From assembly GCA_029863385.1 (NCBI GenBank), contig JAOTVU010000003.1:65-64064 (forward strand): a stretch of DNA of 64,000 nucleotides, given 5' to 3'. The notes under the pieces are model-generated. The model saw only the letters and a program-made list of their open reading frames with translations. It had not been told where the DNA came from and ran no database searches. A program made the position numbers and the translations under genes. This stretch comes from Acidimicrobiia bacterium (lineage in GTDB: Bacteria > Actinomycetota > Acidimicrobiia > Acidimicrobiales > SZUA-35). Below, piece after piece: positions 41,115 to 47,515 of this stretch. Each line of letters starts with the position of its first letter. Position 1 is the stretch's first letter.

Positions 41115-41723
41115 ATGACAAGTCCTGTTCTGCTGCCAACCGCCGAAACGCCGAGCTCCAGCTTCGGTTTTGACATCTTCCAGCAGCTGCTCAAGCAACG
41201 CATCGTCTTCCTTGGGCAGCAGGTCGATGACAACATCGCCAACGCCCTCGCCGCCCAGATTCTCTACCTGGCCGGCCAGGACAACGACAAGGACATCTGG
41301 GTCTACATCAACTCCCCGGGTGGCTCGGTCACCGCCGGCATGGCCATCTACGACACCATGCAGTTCGTGAAACCAGATGTGGCCACCGTGTGCCTCGGTC
41401 TCGGCGCCTCGATGGGCCAGTTCCTGCTCACGGCCGGCGCCCCCGGCAAGCGCTACGCACTTCCCCACGCCCGGATCCTGATGCACCAGCCGAGTGCCGG
41501 CGTGCAGGGTCAGGCGGCCGACATCGCCATCCAGGCCGAGAACCTGATCAACATCAAGAAGGAGATGGCTCAGCTGATCGCCGATCACTCGGGCCAGGAG
41601 CTCGAGACGATCATCGAGGACTCCGACCGTGACAAGTGGTTCACGGCCAACGAGGCGAAAGACTACGGTCTCCTCGACCACGTGATCACCCGGTCCGGCG
41701 AGCTCGCCGGCGGCGACGGCTGA
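41115..41723 (+). CDS. clpP: ATP-dependent Clp protease proteolytic subunit
   Basis: YINSPGGSV, ASMG catalytic Ser, MHQP and DRD triad motifs. Confidence 0.97.
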   Translation: MTSPVLLPTAETPSSSFGFDIFQQLLKQRIVFLGQQVDDNIANALAAQILYLAGQDNDKDIWVYINSPGGSVTAGMAIYDTMQFVKPDVATVCLGLGASMGQFLLTAGAPGKRYALPHARILMHQPSAGVQGQAADIAIQAENLINIKKEMAQLIADHSGQELETIIEDSDRDKWFTANEAKDYGLLDHVITRSGELAGGDG

Positions 41724-41752
41724 CCGTCCCGCCGGACCGTCGAACGTCTCCG

Positions 41753-43006
41753 ATGGCGTCGCCCGATCACGCCGACGGCGCCGCCGGGTTCGCCGCGCCC
41801 TATGACGCACCGTTCACCCTGGTCGTGGACCGGGTGGCGACCGGCGGAGCCGCACTCGGTTCCGGTCCGGACGGGCGGGTGGTCTTCGCCCACGGTGCGG
41901 TCCCCGGCGAGGAGCTGACCGCAGAGGCCACGACGGTTCATCGCTCCCGGGTCGAAGCCCGCCCCGTCGAGATCCTTCGGGCGTCACCCGACCGGGTGGA
42001 CCCACCGTGCCGCCACGCACGACCGGACGGCGCCTGGGGAGGCGCCTGCGGCGGTTGCGACTGGCAGTACATCGCCGTTGAACGTCAACGGGCGCTGAGG
42101 GTCGAGATCGTCGAGGACTGCCTGAGGCGCCTGGCCCGCCTCGACCCGCTGCCACCGGTCCGGTCCGGGCCCGAACTGCCCGCTGACGGCTACCGCACCA
42201 CCGTGCGGGCCGTCGTGTCGGGAGGGCGGGCCGGCTACCGGAGACGGCGCTCGCATGAGCCGCTGGTCGTCGACGAGTGCGTCATCGCCCATCCCCGGGT
42301 CTCCGAGCTGCTGATCGACGGCCGCTTCGGTCCGTCGGCCACCGAGGTCGTGATCCGGGTTGGGGCCAACAGCGGTGAACGGATGGTCGTGATCGACCCG
42401 GCGGCCGAGGGGGTCGTCGTGCCCGATGATGTCGTGGTGGTCGGACGCAACGAGCTGACCGCCGGCCGCCGACCCCACATCCACGAGGAACTCGGTGGGC
42501 TGCGTCTCCAGATCTCGGCCGACTCCTTCTTCCAGTGTCGGCCGGACGGGGCGCTGGCCATGGCCCGCGTCGTCGGTGATCTGCTGGCTCCCTTCGAGGG
42601 CCCGATGCTCGACGCCTACTGCGGTGTGGGGCTCTTCGGCGCCCTGGCCGCCGTCGGCCGGCCGGTGATCGGCGTCGAGTCGAACCCGTCGGCCGCCGCC
42701 GACGCCCGCTGGAATCTTCGTCCGCACGGGCGGGTGGTGGAGTCAACGGTCGAACGCTGGGAACCCGAGCCGGTGGGGGTCGTCGTCGCCGATCCCGCTC
42801 GAACCGGTCTCAAGGCGGCTGCCTGTGACCGCCTGGTGGCCACCGGCGCGGCCGCCATCGCGCTGGTCAGCTGCGATCCGGCATCACTGGCCCGCGACAC
42901 GATGCTGCTGGGCGACAGGGGCTTCGGACTGGAGTCGGTCACCGTGCTCGACCTGTTCGGGCACACCTCACACATCGAGACGATCTCGCTGTTCGCCCGT
43001 TTTTGA
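41753..43006 (+). CDS. TRAM-domain RNA (uracil-5)-methyltransferase, RlmD/TrmA family
   Basis: GRVVF...PGE TRAM domain, C..CGGC Fe-S motif, SFFQ, DAYCGVG, SCDP and HIE. Confidence 0.9.
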   Translation: MASPDHADGAAGFAAPYDAPFTLVVDRVATGGAALGSGPDGRVVFAHGAVPGEELTAEATTVHRSRVEARPVEILRASPDRVDPPCRHARPDGAWGGACGGCDWQYIAVERQRALRVEIVEDCLRRLARLDPLPPVRSGPELPADGYRTTVRAVVSGGRAGYRRRRSHEPLVVDECVIAHPRVSELLIDGRFGPSATEVVIRVGANSGERMVVIDPAAEGVVVPDDVVVVGRNELTAGRRPHIHEELGGLRLQISADSFFQCRPDGALAMARVVGDLLAPFEGPMLDAYCGVGLFGALAAVGRPVIGVESNPSAAADARWNLRPHGRVVESTVERWEPEPVGVVVADPARTGLKAAACDRLVATGAAAIALVSCDPASLARDTMLLGDRGFGLESVTVLDLFGHTSHIETISLFARF

Positions 43007-43894
43007 TTCTCGATCCCGAACTCGGCCGCCGCGGCCGTCCGGGCTACCGATCGCCATGTAGGAAGCCCGCCAGTCGTTGTCCGGCCATTTCACCGGCGCC
43101 TGGACGGTCGTTCGGGGCAGGAACGCCGACTCGAACAGGTTGAGGGCCGTGTCGACGACCAGTCGCTGTGCCTCCGGGTCGCCCGGCGGTCCGCACGGGT
43201 TGCCCAGAGGCAGATCGGTGAACACGAACCGGGCGACCGCGGCCTGTTCGACGATGTCACGGGCACTGCCGACGACCACCGACGGGAATCCGGCCTGCTC
43301 GAGGTGGCGTGCGACCAAACTCACGGTTTGGTGGCAGACCGGTCACAGGGGAATCAGGATGACCAGATCGACGTCGTCCTCGTCGCACCATGCGGCGATG
43401 GTCTCGGCATCGGCTTGCGTGGATCGCTGACTGTAGGTGGTCGGAACGGAGAAGAACCGGTCGTTGAGCGACCCGAGACGGCCATCGGCGACGAACCCGG
43501 CCAGAGTCCGCAGCGGGAGAAACGACTCGACGTCGTTGGTGGTTGTTGCGGCCTTGTGCCAGAAGAGATCGTCGGTGTACATCTGCTCGGGTGGGGGGTG
43601 GGCGGCGAAGGCCCGAACCGACTTGGGCGGCCTCGAGCCGTCGTGGAACTCGACCGGAAACGTGGTCGTCACCACCGCCAGCCGGCTGGCTGCCAACGGC
43701 CGACGAGGTTTCTGAAACGGTGCCGAGTCGTTCGTCACCCAGCGGTAGGGCCTGGCGTAGCCTTTGGCGGCGTAGTAACGCCGGGATCGATCGATGTAGC
43801 TGATGGCAACGCGATGAGCCGGATCGGGGGTCCCGTCGGCCCGGGTGACGCCGTCTTCGTGCGATGAGGCGAGCGCTGCCTCGGCTTCGGTCAT
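42968..43894 (-). CDS. Selenoprotein of the glycine/betaine/sarcosine/D-proline reductase component B (PrdB/GrdB-like) family; Sec at UGA 43345-43343
   Basis: ORFs 43343..44074 and 42968..43324 share a frame and are separated by one TGA. Readthrough gives VDLVILIPL-U-PVCHQTVSLVARHLEQAGFPSV (UxxC, PrdB-type), 308 aa. Confidence 0.85.
43310..43336 (-). promoter_or_regulatory. Bacterial SECIS-like hairpin
   Basis: UGC-C-ACCAAAC-[CGUGA]-GUUUGGU-C-GCA. The apical loop begins after a 17-nt spacer from the UGA and has GU at loop positions 2-3. Confidence 0.75.
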
Positions 43895-44282
43895 GGCGAC
43901 GAGCGTAGAACACCGGACGGCGGGCACCCCAAACGTCGAGGTCGTGGACCGTCGCCGCGGTGTGATGCGGCCGTCGCGCGGGCGTAGACGGCCCTGGTGT
44001 CGGTAGTATTGGTGGGCGCGGCTGCGGCGTTGGTGAAAGGCGGTCCGCCTGTGTATCCGACAAGACTGAAACATCTGCTCACGGGGGGTTGTCCGATGGG
44101 CTCGTGCACAACGGCGGTTGTTGGTGATACAGCTGCCCTATGGGCAACGTTGGGGGTCGTGTCGGCGGCCGTTGAAGGTGCGGCGAGACGAGAGTCGGGT
44201 TGTGCGCCCTGCCCGTGTGTGTGATGGTGTCGTGGGACCCACGACGATCGCGGTGAACAAGGCTTAGATAGGAGATTCGGCT

Positions 44283-45737
44283 GTGGCCGAGACGGGAAAC
44301 GAAAATGGACCGGCGAACGACGCTCGTGGTGGGGCGTTGAGCGGACCGCCGCCATCGCCTGGTGAAGCGGACCCCGAGTGGTCGACGAGTGACTTCTCGA
44401 GCCTCGACTTGGGGGAGGACGCGGTGGACACCTCGGCCCGGCCGCTCCGTCGGCTCGACCTTCCCCCGCTGGCCCAGACGGGCGACGCCGTGGGATCGTC
44501 CCAGGCCCCCCGACCGGCCGATGCCGGCGTCTTCGCCTCGGTGCCCGACGACGAGAACCTGACGATCAGCTCGTCGGCCGCGGCTGTGGATCGCACCTCC
44601 GGGCAGCCCGTTCGTCACGACGGGCCCGGCGTCGGCGGATTCCAGCCAACGGCGTCGGCCCCCAAGCAGGGAACACCACCTCATCCCCTCAGCGCGGTGC
44701 AAGGACCGGGACCGGGCGCCCCTCCGAGCCGAGGTAACCAGGAACGGTACCGGCCCGGGATGGGAAGCGGACCGCCTCCCGGAGGCAACTACGGCGACTA
44801 CACGACCGTCTACGAGGAGAACACGAGCGCCTTCGACGACCGTTTCAGCGGCACCGATCGGCGACAGGCCGTTCCGATGGGTGGCCCCCGCCCCGTTCCG
44901 CCGGGCGGTCAGGGACCTCGTCAGGCCGGCCGCCCCCAGCTGGAGCTGGCACCGCCGCCCGTCCAGCAGGACCGAAGTCGATGGATGATCCCGGTCGCGG
45001 CACTGCTCGGTGTGCTCGCCCTGGCGGCCGGCTACTGGGTGTTCGTCCGCAACAACGACGACTCGGCCACCTTTGCCGCCGATTCGGACGACTTGGCTGC
45101 GGATCTGGTCGAGGAGGATCTGGAGGGCGACGCCGCCACCGATGCTGGGTCGACCGGATCGGCGGATCCGGCGGCTCCCACCGTGCTCTCGGATTCGCCG
45201 GTTCTGACCCTCGAGGGTGCAGCCGATGGACCGCTCGAGGTGGAGACCCAGTACGAGATGTCGATCGAGGGTGTCCCCAACGGCTCGGACTATCTCGTCG
45301 TCGTCGATGACATCCCGCAGGAACCGGCGCTCGACTATCTGCCGGTGCTCATCCTCCCGGAGGGCAGACACACCATCTCGGTGACCGTTACATCGGGTGG
45401 TCAGACGGCCAACACCAACCCGGTCGAGGTCTACGTGCTCGCACCCGGACTGACGGCGACCCATCGGGCCAACCTGTCGTCGGTGAGCATCGCCGATCAG
45501 GGATGGGCCGAGGCGCTGAAGCAGTTCGACGAGTTCCGTGCGGCCGGACACGAGAATCTGATGCTCTCGCCTTCCGACCCGTATCCGAGCCTCCTGCCCG
45601 GCTTCTGGAACATCTATGTGGCCGGATTCGGCGATCATGCGGCGGCAACGGCCTACTGCGAGCAGTTCGAGTTGTCGATCCCCGACCAGTGCTACCCGGC
45701 GCCGTTCGACCCGAACGGCCCGCCTCGAGACGGCTGA
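44283..45737 (+). CDS. Single-pass membrane protein with Pro/Gly-rich cytoplasmic N-terminus and a SPOR-like C-terminal domain
   Basis: AGGAG RBS, one central TM, and C-terminal YPSLLPGFWNIYVAGF...YC...CY. Confidence 0.6.
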   Translation: MAETGNENGPANDARGGALSGPPPSPGEADPEWSTSDFSSLDLGEDAVDTSARPLRRLDLPPLAQTGDAVGSSQAPRPADAGVFASVPDDENLTISSSAAAVDRTSGQPVRHDGPGVGGFQPTASAPKQGTPPHPLSAVQGPGPGAPPSRGNQERYRPGMGSGPPPGGNYGDYTTVYEENTSAFDDRFSGTDRRQAVPMGGPRPVPPGGQGPRQAGRPQLELAPPPVQQDRSRWMIPVAALLGVLALAAGYWVFVRNNDDSATFAADSDDLAADLVEEDLEGDAATDAGSTGSADPAAPTVLSDSPVLTLEGAADGPLEVETQYEMSIEGVPNGSDYLVVVDDIPQEPALDYLPVLILPEGRHTISVTVTSGGQTANTNPVEVYVLAPGLTATHRANLSSVSIADQGWAEALKQFDEFRAAGHENLMLSPSDPYPSLLPGFWNIYVAGFGDHAAATAYCEQFELSIPDQCYPAPFDPNGPPRDG

Positions 45738-45841
45738 TCCGCCGGGGCTGACCGAACCGAAGACCGCGGCTGCTGCGACATTCTTCGCGCCCGAGGAGGT
45801 GGGGTGGCATCGTCGACCGATGCTGGCAGACTGTCCGACCG

Positions 45842-47515
45842 ATGAGTTCCTCGACAGCGGCATCGACACTGCGTCTACGGGTGTGGCAACGAAGGGCGCT
45901 TGATGCGTTCCTTTCCTCGGGGCAACCGGATTTCCTGGCCGTGGCCACACCGGGTGCGGGGAAGACGACGTTTGCCCTGACGGCGGCACGGATGGCGATG
46001 GCCAACCTTCCGGGCCGGCTGGTCGTCGTGGCCCCCACCCGCCACCTCAAGGAGCAGTGGGCCGACGCCGCCCAGCGGTTCGGTCTCCATCTCTTCACCG
46101 ACTGGCAGCCCGGTGATCTGATACCGGCCGACGCCCACGGTGTCGTCACCACCTACCAGCAGGTCGGCAGTAGTCCGGAACCCTTCTTCGCCCTGTCCCA
46201 GGGCGGCTTTGTCGTGCTCGACGAGATCCACCACGCCGGTGAGGATCGAACCTGGGGCGACGGCGTCCGCTTGGCCTTCGATGGTGCCGCTCGTCGTCTG
46301 GCCCTGTCGGGAACTCCGTTCCGATCCGACACCAACACCATTCCCTTCGTCCGCTATGACGACGACGTCGTCGTGCCCGATATCGAGTACGGCTACGGCG
46401 ACGCCCTGGGAGACGGTCGGGTCGTGCGACCGGTGTACTTTCCGCGATTCGGCGGCTTCATGGAGTGGACCGCCCCGGACGGCTCGGTTCTGGCCGCCTC
46501 GTTCGACGACGCCCTGGCCCGAAACCACGCCAACCAGCGGCTCCGGGCCGCGCTGAGCCTGGAAGGGGAGTGGCTGCCGACCGTGGTCGGGCATGCCAAC
46601 GAGCAGCTCATGAGGATACGGGCCGGCCACCCCGAGGCCGGCGGACTGGTCATCGCAACCGACCAGGATCACGCCCGGGGCATCGCCGATCTCCTGCGTC
46701 GCCGTTACGGCCAGAAGCCGGTTGTCGCCACCAGCGAGGATTCCGACGCCTCGGCTCGCATCTCCCGATTCGCCGAGAGCACCGATCCGTGGATCGTCGC
46801 CGTGCGCATGGTGTCGGAGGGTGTCGATATCCCCCGGCTCCGGGTCGCCGTCTACGCCACGACCACCACCACCGAACTGTTCTTCCGCCAGGCCGTCGGT
46901 CGGATCGTTCGCCACATCGCCGGTCGGGGCCGCCAGCGGGCCTACATGTTCATCCCGGACGACGTCCGTCTTCGCCACTACGGTTTCACCATCGCCGACT
47001 CCCGTCGCCACAGCCTCACGAAGAACACCAGGGAATCGGACGATGACAGAACCCGCGACGCCGACACCGACCAGATGTCGCTGTTCTCGGTTCTTTCCGC
47101 CACCGCCACCGACGCCGACGCCGAACCGGACGTCCTGAGCGTCCACGACGAGCCGGGCCTCGATGACGAGCACGGGACCGACGGCGTCGACGAGCATCTC
47201 GGCCCCGAGGCACTGACGCTCGATCTCGGGCGGCTTCCACCACCGGCCGTCGCCACGGCGACGTCGTCGATCGGGTTCGGCCGATTCGACCGAAACGAAC
47301 GCGACAGACTGCGGCGGATGAACAACGACCTGACGAAGGAGCTCGTCGACCTGACCGGTCGCCCCCACGCCCAGGTCAACGCCGAACTCAACCGGCGTGC
47401 CGGTATCGGCAAGGTGTCGGAGGCGTCGATCGTCCAGCTCAACCGTCGCAGCCGGGCCGCCGAGGACTGGCTCCGACACGAGCACCGACGGTCCCGATTC
47501 GCTCGGTTCACCTGA
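45842..47515 (+). CDS. SF2 DEAD/DEAH-box helicase (actinobacterial Rv2917-like/ResIII family)
   Basis: LRVWQ, ATPGAGKT, DEIHH, LSGTPFRSD, MVSEGVDIP and QAVGRIVR. Confidence 0.9.
   Translation: MSSSTAASTLRLRVWQRRALDAFLSSGQPDFLAVATPGAGKTTFALTAARMAMANLPGRLVVVAPTRHLKEQWADAAQRFGLHLFTDWQPGDLIPADAHGVVTTYQQVGSSPEPFFALSQGGFVVLDEIHHAGEDRTWGDGVRLAFDGAARRLALSGTPFRSDTNTIPFVRYDDDVVVPDIEYGYGDALGDGRVVRPVYFPRFGGFMEWTAPDGSVLAASFDDALARNHANQRLRAALSLEGEWLPTVVGHANEQLMRIRAGHPEAGGLVIATDQDHARGIADLLRRRYGQKPVVATSEDSDASARISRFAESTDPWIVAVRMVSEGVDIPRLRVAVYATTTTTELFFRQAVGRIVRHIAGRGRQRAYMFIPDDVRLRHYGFTIADSRRHSLTKNTRESDDDRTRDADTDQMSLFSVLSATATDADAEPDVLSVHDEPGLDDEHGTDGVDEHLGPEALTLDLGRLPPPAVATATSSIGFGRFDRNERDRLRRMNNDLTKELVDLTGRPHAQVNAELNRRAGIGKVSEASIVQLNRRSRAAEDWLRHEHRRSRFARFT

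What the first reader, a model, noticed from the sequence alone, without database searches (positions are those of the whole stretch)
42968..43894. Hidden stand-alone selenoprotein (PrdB/GrdB-like, U-P-V-C) with an in-frame UGA and a SECIS hairpin
Seen in sequence: two same-frame ORFs are separated only by TGA (43345-43343), reading ...ATT CCC CTG TGA CCG GTC TGC CAC CAA ACC GTG AGT..., i.e. IPL-U-PVCHQTVSLVARHLE. A hairpin follows immediately: a perfect 7-bp stem ACCAAAC/GUUUGGU with loop CGUGA, extended by UGC/GCA across a C-C mismatch. Established knowledge: UxxC is the active site of D-proline reductase PrdB and glycine reductase GrdB. Bacterial SECIS elements lie just 3' of the UGA with a G near the start of the apical loop. 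Inference: this is a 308-aa selenoenzyme in an actinobacterium, a group where Sec use is patchy. It has no prdA/grdA/grdE partners or sel genes in the window, which points to a non-Stickland redox function. Standard annotation would split it or call it a pseudogene.
Basis: partly seen in the sequence, partly recalled or inferred. Interest (0 to 1): 0.85.

Follow-up and report, generated by a model that had tools for sequence, protein, structure and literature searches.

The report
Orphan PrdB-like selenoprotein gene
This is a real selenocysteine-encoding gene from a widespread enzyme family of unknown function related to PrdB/GrdB; gene callers cut it in two at its UGA codon, but the family has been catalogued as a selenoprotein before, so the finding is sound and not a new kind of thing.

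Summary
A minus-strand frame (43894-42968, 308 aa) is open except for one TGA at 43345-43343, reading IPL-U-PVCHQ. The described hairpin follows it.

It is a genuine Sec codon:
- Full-length homologs have CPVC at that position, and the closest database entries stop exactly before it.
- Across 167 distinct TGA-bearing relatives, the six hairpin codons are nearly frozen at synonymous sites, with compensatory double changes.
- The assembly encodes selA, selB, a Sec-containing selD and tRNA-Sec.
- Contigs from three other DNA studies keep the TGA.

The protein is a distant branch of the GrdB/PrdB superfamily and scores below every curated cut-off. No conserved neighbour was found in 120 loci, and no GrdA or GrdE/PrdA was found in the genome (weak negatives). 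It is therefore not a Stickland reductase subunit, and its substrate is unknown.

"Proline reductase PrdB" UxxC selenoproteins were already listed as abundant in marine metagenomes in 2005 and 2008. This is a new member of a known kind. Interest is moderate to low.

The parts
42968..43894 (-). Complete selenoprotein CDS: 308 aa plus the TGA stop at 42970-42968, starting at ATG 43894-43892.
   Evidence: Translation with TGA=U is open throughout. The start matches the N-termini of database relatives P0003, P0004 and P0008. The upstream extension to ATG 44074 has atypical codon-position GC. The AF2 model has pLDDT 88.2 and pTM 0.87.
43343..43345 (-). In-frame UGA read as selenocysteine (U184) in the U-P-V-C motif.
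   Evidence: It aligns with an invariant Cys in 59 full-length homologs. It is TGA in 175 of 184 motif hits in related loci. It is unchanged in contigs of 3 other DNA runs and one RNA-library run.
43310..43336 (-). SECIS hairpin. Lower stem 43336-43334 with 43312-43310; C-C mismatch 43333/43313; 7-bp upper stem 43332-43326 with 43320-43314; apical loop CGUGA 43325-43321. Ten nt separate the UGA from the upper stem.
   Evidence: Folds as described. Third-position entropy in the six hairpin codons is 0.19-0.68 bit, against 1.3-1.9 in the flanks. Loop G and U are at least 90% conserved in 140 sequences.
42968..43342 (-). C-terminal part after Sec (PVCHQ...DLPLGNPCG...), which gene callers drop or call separately.
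   Evidence: It is conserved in all full-length homologs: invariant C187, H188, Q189, D227, P229, L230, G231 and others. Codon-position GC looks coding. Many database entries begin at query residue 186 or 192.

Best explanation
This is an intact, translated selenoprotein gene. During translation, SelB carrying Sec-tRNA(Sec) binds the hairpin that starts about 10 nt after UGA-184 and inserts selenocysteine, giving a 308-aa protein. The protein is a stand-alone, monocistronic member of an orphan branch of the GrdB/PrdB alpha/beta superfamily. Sec184 sits between a beta-strand (177-181) and the N-terminus of a helix (185-200), with Cys187 one turn away. Shown here: the recoding signals, the Sec machinery, the homology and the absence of any conserved partner. 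Inferred: the chemistry is PrdB-like. The selenolate attacks a bound small-molecule substrate, Cys187 resolves the adduct to a selenenyl-sulfide, and a cellular dithiol such as thioredoxin regenerates the enzyme. This would happen without the pyruvoyl subunit (PrdA/GrdE) or GrdA of Stickland reductases. The substrate is unknown.
For: - Sec/Cys pairing: CPVC is invariant in 59 full-length homologs, and the closest relatives are truncated at ...PL.
- In the class-level genome search, 104 of 401 genomes have a match, and all but two listed match rows carry an in-frame TGA.
- All 105 motif hits in loci L014-L043 and L064-L143 are TGA. With the metagenome loci added, 175 hits are TGA and 9 are Cys codons.
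- SECIS: 88.9% of cells paired against at most 38.5% when slid; 31 cells with double changes against 7.4 expected; 0 of 500 shuffles reach the observed values.
- This window's CAA...TTG against the usual CAG...CTG is a double synonymous compensatory change, also seen in L178, L197 and L205.
- The Ser codon in the 3' arm of the upper stem is AGT in 134 of 167 Sec forms and in 0 of 9 Cys forms.
- Machinery in the same assembly: selD (341.9 bits, 1 TGA), selA (396.5 bits), selB (267.4 bits) and tRNA-SeC on C77.
- Independent samples keep the TGA and the hairpin. One is a strain variant with 15 differences; another is a contig from an RNA library that bridges the codon.
- Family placement: TIGR04483 1.5e-14, with GrdH, GrdF and TIGR01918 weaker.
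- Stand-alone: flanked by a convergent and a probably divergent gene; no conserved neighbour in 21 loci or 99 loci.
- Model: confident fold with U184 at a strand-to-helix junction.
Against: - No experiment shows Se incorporation. The RNA-library contig does not prove transcription, as itself warns.
- The hairpin's folding energy is unremarkable (z = -1.15), and Rfam has no matching model.
- The catalytic mechanism is inferred only by analogy. The protein scores below the cut-offs of every curated PrdB/GrdB model, and no solved structure resembles it beyond a generic Rossmann-like fold.
- The absence of GrdA and GrdE/PrdA rests on searches in which no control genome rang, in an assembly that is 92% complete.
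- A partner encoded elsewhere cannot be excluded.
Confidence: 0.8

Rival explanations
1. It is the selenoprotein B subunit of a true Stickland-type D-proline, glycine, sarcosine or betaine reductase, with its partners encoded elsewhere in the genome.
For: The best family hits are PrdB, GrdH, GrdF and GrdB models. Public sources name Cys homologs 'D-proline reductase (dithiol) PrdB' or 'glycine reductase'.
Against: Scores are far below the cut-offs: 54 against 300, 28.6 against 65.45, and 13.3 against 22. No GrdA or GrdE/PrdA family was found in this genome, and no GrdA in five other genomes that hold the family. None of 120 loci has a conserved partner gene. The family occurs in 8 named phyla, mostly not amino-acid fermenters. 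The third Cys of GrdB's UxxCxxC motif (motif taken from PMC13188914) is absent: this protein reads U-P-V-C-H-Q-T.
Confidence: 0.05
2. The conserved domain handles an acyl group, forming a seleno- or thio-ester, and works with an adenylate-forming enzyme rather than cleaving a C-N bond as PrdB does.
For: Two representative clusters fuse an N-terminal AMP-binding (acyl-CoA synthetase-like) domain to this domain: P0129 (805 aa) and P0127 (514 aa). An AMP-binding ORF lies upstream in 10 of 99 loci, 6 of them on the same strand. Acyl-CoA dehydrogenase (15 of 99 loci) and SDR (13 of 99 loci) are the commonest neighbours.
Against: The fusions are rare: 2 of the 150 listed clusters, both Cys forms of a separate N-C-P-V-C subgroup. 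The neighbour families are large and common in such genomes, so 10-15% within 6 kb may be chance; no background rate was computed. No such gene flanks the gene in this window.
Confidence: 0.1
3. UGA-184 terminates translation. The product is then a 183-aa protein, with or without a separate 118-aa product from GTG 43324, as databases annotate it.
For: Public gene calls give 183-aa proteins such as P0003, P0004 and P0008 and separate C-terminal pieces.
Against: Cys forms are single continuous proteins. The TGA sits in the invariant active-site motif and is followed by a conserved SECIS. The Sec machinery is present. Under this reading the model's central beta-sheet would be cut in two.
Confidence: 0.03
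4. It is a pseudogene, a nonsense mutation or a sequencing error.
For: None beyond the presence of a stop codon.
Against: The same TGA occurs in 167 distinct sequence contexts from many phyla and in contigs from three other DNA studies. The downstream sequence stays conserved and looks coding.
Confidence: 0.01

Closest known systems
PrdB, selenoprotein subunit of clostridial D-proline reductase (NCBIfam TIGR04483)
   Same: It is the best-scoring curated family: residues 118-256 match model positions 80-220 of 238. Both have a UxxC Sec motif (family motif as listed in PMC13188914). Both have a bacterial-type SECIS directly after the UGA.
   Different: It scores 54 bits against a cut-off of 300. 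It is about 70 residues longer, with a family-specific N-terminal region. No PrdA proprotein, prdC or prd operon was found. It occurs in Acidimicrobiia, Binatota, Myxococcota, Chloroflexota and other phyla rather than in proline-fermenting Clostridia.
GrdB/GrdF/GrdH, substrate-specific selenoprotein B of glycine, sarcosine and betaine reductases (TIGR01917/TIGR01918, NF040794/5, PF07355)
   Same: The C-terminal catalytic domain is homologous: residues about 115-256 match model positions about 276-421 of 431-435. Sec is in the equivalent motif.
   Different: It lacks the roughly 270-residue N-terminal part of GrdB. It has UxxC rather than UxxCxxC (motif). It scores below all cut-offs. No GrdA or GrdE was found.
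'Proline reductase PrdB' UxxC selenoprotein family of the Sargasso Sea and GOS selenoproteome catalogues (Zhang, Fomenko and Gladyshev 2005, PMC1088965; Zhang and Gladyshev 2008, PMC2398784; passages read)
   Same: Both have the UxxC motif and a distant pfam07355 relationship. In both, Sec forms outnumber Cys forms: 235 against 110 in GOS, and 70 against 9 in the metagenome sample here. Both occur in non-fermenting environmental bacteria, and also in Anaeromyxobacter and Geobacter. This is very probably the same family or a sister of it.
   Different: The passages I read of those papers call it proline reductase and do not note that PrdA is missing.
Bacterial SECIS of E. coli fdhF (recalled from memory, not from any call)
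   Same: Both are stem-loops within the coding sequence just 3' of the UGA. Both have a spacing of about 11 nt to the upper helix and a conserved G-U in the apical loop that SelB contacts.
   Different: The sequence is unrelated. The bulged U of fdhF has no obvious counterpart; here a C-C mismatch separates the lower and upper stems.

Membership tests
Bacterial selenoprotein gene | The in-frame UGA aligns with Cys in homologs. | tested here: met
   U184 aligns with an invariant Cys in 59 full-length homologs. Nine Cys-codon loci were found against 175 TGA loci.
Bacterial selenoprotein gene | A SECIS stem-loop lies directly downstream of the UGA and is conserved as a structure. | tested here: met
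   88.9% of cells are paired, 6 of 10 pairs show double changes, and 0 of 500 shuffles reach this. Synonymous sites in the hairpin are frozen.
Bacterial selenoprotein gene | selA, selB, selC and selD are present in the genome. | tested here: met
   selD, selA and selB all score over their cut-offs. tRNA-SeC(tca) lies on contig C77.
Bacterial selenoprotein gene | Selenium is incorporated into the protein. | not testable with these tools
   This needs 75Se labelling or mass spectrometry.
PrdB, D-proline reductase (TIGR04483 equivalog) | The whole-protein score reaches the curated cut-off of 300 bits. | tested here: not met
   54 bits. The two paralogs in the same genome score 157.7 and 96.4 bits.
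PrdB, D-proline reductase (TIGR04483 equivalog) | It is encoded with the PrdA pyruvoyl proprotein in a prd operon. | tested here: not met
   No conserved neighbour was found in 21 loci or 99 loci. In the window the neighbours are a tRNA-methyltransferase-like gene and an unknown ORF.
PrdB, D-proline reductase (TIGR04483 equivalog) | A PrdA/GrdE family (PF09338) gene is present anywhere in the genome. | tested here: inconclusive
   There was no match in G000, which is 92% complete, but no control genome rang either.
GrdB-type selenoprotein B (TIGR01918 subfamily; PF07355) | The score reaches the curated cut-offs of 65.45 bits and 22 bits. | tested here: not met
   28.6 bits and 13.3 bits. Some family relatives do pass PF07355: P0094, P0102, P0110 and P0120 (precomputed), and P0127 and P0204.
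GrdB-type selenoprotein B (TIGR01918 subfamily; PF07355) | UxxCxxC motif (as stated in PMC13188914). | tested here: not met
   The motif is U-P-V-C-H-Q-T, with no third Cys. H188 and Q189 are invariant in the family.
GrdB-type selenoprotein B (TIGR01918 subfamily; PF07355) | The partner selenoprotein GrdA (PF04723) is in the genome. | tested here: inconclusive
   There was no match in G000 or in 5 other genomes with the family, and no positive control rang.
'Proline reductase PrdB' family of marine selenoproteome catalogues | UxxC Sec motif with distant pfam07355 similarity. | tested here: met
   compared with the table in PMC2398784.
'Proline reductase PrdB' family of marine selenoproteome catalogues | Sequence identity to the catalogued entries. 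| not testable with these tools

The most novel reading that the evidence does not exclude
The 290-310-aa U/C-P-V-C-H-Q family is not a proline or glycine reductase subunit. On this reading it is a self-sufficient, single-subunit selenium-dependent reductase with a substrate not yet known, possibly a carboxylate handled as an acyl-enzyme, as the rare fusions to adenylate-forming domains hint. It has diversified into at least three paralogs in this one genome. It is kept overwhelmingly in the Sec form across at least 8 phyla, with an almost nucleotide-invariant SECIS. If so, the family long listed as 'PrdB' in ocean and sediment selenoproteomes would be a mis-named, uncharacterised enzyme class.
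Probability: 0.3. Interest if true: 0.6.

Novelty: new member of a known kind. Interest (0 to 1): 0.35.

Why it matters
- Annotation: this gene and most of its relatives are stored in public databases as N-terminal stubs ending at the Sec codon or as separate C-terminal pieces. By my reading of the table, that is about 27 and 19 of the 150 best representative clusters. Family counts, names and Pfam coverage are distorted as a result.
- Biology: the family is one of the few in which Sec forms outnumber Cys forms. It has switched between Sec and Cys at least 14 times on a 232-row tree. It is labelled 'proline/glycine reductase' although the partners that define those enzymes were not found with it.
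- Knowing its substrate would explain part of the selenium demand of sediment and marine Acidimicrobiia and many other bacteria.
- The finding does not open a new category. The recoding mechanism is canonical and the family is already catalogued.

Tried and rejected
- Solved-structure relatives: sequence searches of the PDB found nothing at E <= 1 with the protein or with the 60-sequence profile. Foldseek found nothing at E <= 0.001. VIA-align wide gave only generic Rossmann-like rows: best Z 9.5 (LacI-type regulator), rmsd 4.2 over 141 residues, with SDRs at Z about 8. No functional lead came from these.
- Rfam: only two chance-level rows, E 3.6 and 9.1, neither at the hairpin. I saw no bacterial SECIS family among the matches.
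- Promoter and terminator scan of 42700-44300: no promoter-like site, and two terminator-like sites inside the gene at chance level.
- Longer (fused) relatives by word search: none among proteins of 540-2000 aa (weak evidence). The exhaustive representative search later found a few fusions.
- Positive control for GrdA detection: five genomes that hold the family (G401-G405, reached through L106, L103, L110, L114, L112) gave 0 of 5. The GrdA and GrdE negatives therefore remain without a positive control.
- Literature: 'PrdB-like' plus 'selenoprotein' gave 0 papers. 'PF07355' gave 1 paper, a review. 'selenoprotein' plus 'Acidimicrobiia' gave 2 papers, neither mentioning PrdB or GrdB. These searches found no functional study of the orphan family. 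Subscription journals are not covered.
- Habitat: the run listing names sediment, marine, mangrove and estuary metagenomes, but most rows are small shares that I did not lay, so I make no habitat claim from them.
- Parts without contig cover are not interpreted.
- Alternative start at ATG 44074: rejected. Codon-position GC is atypical and homologs start at the equivalent of 43894.
- Tree caveats: it was built with FastTree only and several long branches meet, so I use only the count of Sec/Cys changes and the nearest neighbours. Rows dropped before the tree were loci L044-L063 (duplicates of L015-L035), rows with fewer than 120 residues before or fewer than 85 after the motif, and identical sequences.
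- Unpublished genome G212 enters only the tally '104 of 401' and two match rows. No other claim rests on it.
Full report
OBSERVATION

On the minus strand the frame from ATG 43894 to the stop at 42970-42968 is open except for one TGA at 43345-43343. Read as Sec, it gives a 308-aa protein with ...LVILIPL-U184-PVCHQTVSLVARHLE.... The ORF listing shows the two same-frame pieces that a gene caller would see.

Ten nucleotides after the UGA a 7-bp helix begins: ACCAAAC/GUUUGGU, at 43332-43326 with 43320-43314. It closes a CGUGA loop and is extended by UGC/GCA across a C-C mismatch. On its own the hairpin is thermodynamically ordinary for this 66% GC DNA (z = -1.15; GC), so its meaning has to come from comparison with relatives.

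IS THE UGA A SEC CODON?

Four independent lines say yes.

1. Homologs. A protein search returned 694 relatives. Full-length ones (about 290-310 aa, 42-55% identical) carry C-P-V-C where this gene has U-P-V-C. The closest relatives (64-98% identical) are 176-183-aa entries that end exactly at ...PL. In a 60-sequence alignment, C184, P185, V186, C187, H188 and Q189 are invariant.

2. DNA of relatives.
   - A six-frame search of 401 genomes of the same class found a match in 104, counting G000 and the unpublished G212. All but two listed match rows contain an in-frame TGA.
   - In the species-representative genome collection, all 78 loci with the motif, out of the 80 kept, have TGA. With the class loci that makes 105 of 105.
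   - A metagenome scan seeded with Cys forms still gave 70 TGA against 9 Cys codons.

3. SECIS.
   - Six of 10 pairs show changes on both sides. There are 31 such cells against 7.4 expected, and 0 of 500 shuffles reach any of the five measures.
   - Third-codon-position entropy is 0.19-0.68 bit in the six hairpin codons and 1.3-1.9 bit in the flanks.
   - The Ser codon in the 3' arm of the upper stem is AGT in 134 of 167 Sec forms and never in the 9 Cys forms, which use AGC 7 times and TCG twice.
   - This window carries CAA...TTG where most relatives have CAG...CTG: two synonymous changes that keep the pair. L178, L197 and L205 do the same.
   - The G and U of the loop are at least 90% conserved.

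4. Machinery and independent samples.
   - The assembly (293 contigs, 92% complete) encodes selD over its cut-off with its own in-frame TGA, selA and selB adjacent on contig C265, and tRNA-SeC(tca) on C77.
   - Contigs from three DNA runs of other studies keep the TGA and the hairpin. One is a strain variant with 15 differences elsewhere.
   - A 258-nt contig from an RNA library bridges the codon. That tool warns that this does not prove transcription.

Pseudogene, sequencing error and plain termination are therefore excluded, or very unlikely.

WHAT IS THE PROTEIN?

- The best curated match is PrdB (TIGR04483; 1.5e-14, 54 bits, cut-off 300), covering residues 118-256. GrdH, GrdF, TIGR01918 and GrdB models are weaker, and Pfam GRDB scores 13.3 bits against 22. 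The protein belongs to the GrdB/PrdB superfamily but to none of its curated families.
- The AlphaFold model built on 60 sequences is confident (pLDDT 88.2, pTM 0.87). It shows an alpha/beta domain (residues about 65-278) with U184 between strand 177-181 and helix 185-200.
- No solved structure is related, by sequence or by fold beyond generic Rossmann-like similarity.
- The ESM Atlas places a Cys homolog among clusters auto-named 'glycine reductase family protein', of which only 14-53% of members carry PF07355.

CONTEXT

- The gene is a single transcription unit. The tRNA-(uracil-5)-methyltransferase-like gene at 41636-43006 (+) converges on it and overlaps its last 39 nt. Upstream, the + strand ORF 44283-45737 (no Pfam hit) is the likelier gene by codon-position GC.
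- Clustering of neighbouring ORFs found no conserved partner, in 20 related loci plus the window and in 99 loci of at least 6 kb from many phyla.
- The commonest neighbours are acyl-CoA dehydrogenase (15 of 99 loci) and SDR (13 of 99 loci), at variable distance and orientation.
- GrdA (PF04723) and GrdE/PrdA (PF09338) were not found in the genome, nor was GrdA in five other genomes with the family. No control genome rang, so these are weak negatives.
- The genome holds two further paralogs, each with TGA in LVP(V/L)-U-PVCH and each below the PrdB cut-off at 157.7 and 96.4 bits. One follows an FAD-dependent oxidoreductase gene.

DISTRIBUTION AND EVOLUTION

- Named loci with the Sec form come from Thermodesulfobacteriota (18), Actinomycetota (13), Myxococcota (12), Pseudomonadota (11), Binatota (7), Chloroflexota (7), Spirochaetota (2) and Acidobacteriota (1).
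- A FastTree of 232 rows (166 Sec, 66 Cys) needs at least 14 Sec/Cys changes, 9 of them forced by well-supported branches.
- The window's protein groups with an Actinomycetes MAG and Ilumatobacteraceae, which is consistent with vertical descent in Acidimicrobiia.
- An exhaustive search of 1.84 billion cluster representatives gave 1021 hits at E <= 0.001, 379 at 1e-10 and 35 at 1e-30. Many listed hits end at query residue 181-183 or begin at 186 or 192, so they are fragments split at the Sec codon.

MECHANISM

- Shown: canonical bacterial Sec recoding signals, and a conserved U/C-x-x-C at a strand-to-helix junction.
- Inferred from PrdB/GrdB chemistry (recalled, and as summarised in PMC13188914): a nucleophilic selenolate, a resolving Cys187, and regeneration by a dithiol.
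- Because the pyruvoyl and GrdA partners were not found, and no gene travels with this one, I read it as a self-contained reductase with an unknown substrate (confidence 0.8 for the whole statement, about 0.95 for the recoding part).
- A weak alternative lead comes from rare fusions of the domain to an N-terminal AMP-binding enzyme (P0129, P0127), and once to a Ser/Thr kinase (P0138).

COMPARISON WITH WHAT IS KNOWN, AND NOVELTY

- 'Proline reductase PrdB' with a UxxC motif was the third most abundant known selenoprotein family in the Sargasso Sea, with 42 genes (PMC1088965, passages).
- It had 235 Sec against 110 Cys members in GOS (PMC2398784, passages).
- 'Proline reductase' selenoproteins were listed in Anaeromyxobacter and Geobacter (PMC1794560, passages) and in a worm symbiont (PMC1976440, passages).
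- The passages I read of a 2026 review list only GrdB (PF07355) and D-proline reductase (TIGR04483) for this superfamily, with no separate orphan family (PMC13188914, passages).
- A 2026 preprint reports universal Sec machinery in another Acidimicrobiia lineage without naming this family.
- The gene is therefore a new member of a known kind.
- Whether the catalogued 'PrdB' entries are this exact family could not be checked, because supplements are closed.

VERDICT

This is a real, correctly read selenoprotein gene with a textbook-quality SECIS. It is mis-annotated in databases and mis-named by homology, and its function is unknown. Interest 0.35.

Noticed in passing
L224:7661-8665 (+) and L225:9389-10387 (-), i.e. 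G000 contigs C40 and C82: The same genome holds two more PrdB-like paralogs, each with an in-frame TGA in LVP(V/L)-U-PVCH. They score 157.7 and 96.4 bits on TIGR04483 (cut-off 300). The C40 copy lies directly after an FAD_binding_3 oxidoreductase gene and before an SDR gene.
   Followed up: partly
L001 (G000:C127:7135-8115, -): The genome's selD itself contains one in-frame TGA, so it is a Sec-containing SelD. selA and selB are adjacent on contig C265, and tRNA-SeC lies on C77:914-1009.
   Followed up: partly
P0129 (805 aa), P0127 (514 aa), P0138 (480 aa): Rare Cys-form fusions exist. An AMP-binding (acyl-CoA synthetase-like) domain, and in one case a Ser/Thr protein kinase domain, sits N-terminal to the PrdB-like domain, in a subgroup with the motif N-C-P-V-C-H-Q. 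An AMP-binding ORF also lies upstream in 10 of 99 loci. This is a possible functional hint, or it may be chance.
   Followed up: partly
window 44079-45989: Two long overlapping ORFs, 44079-45989 (-) of 636 aa and 44283-45737 (+) of 484 aa, have no Pfam hit. Codon-position GC favours the + strand ORF, which would be divergent from the selenoprotein gene.
   Followed up: partly
window 42968-43006: The convergent tRNA (uracil-5)-methyltransferase-like ORF (41636-43006, +; weak Pfam hit of 25.1 bits) overlaps the last 39 nt of the selenoprotein gene.
   Followed up: no
L064-L223 (alignment A4): The SECIS core, the upper stem plus loop as in alignment A4, is almost identical at nucleotide level in Sec forms from 8 named phyla. 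That is far more conserved than the surrounding synonymous sites. It may reflect a tight SelB-binding constraint or horizontal spread of the gene.
   Followed up: partly
L076, L093, L086, L146, L148, L151, L160: A minority of Sec forms replace the usual hairpin by a shifted one built on a Thr codon in place of Val (protein reads ...SLT... instead of ...SLV...). This looks like an alternative SECIS solution within the same family.
   Followed up: no
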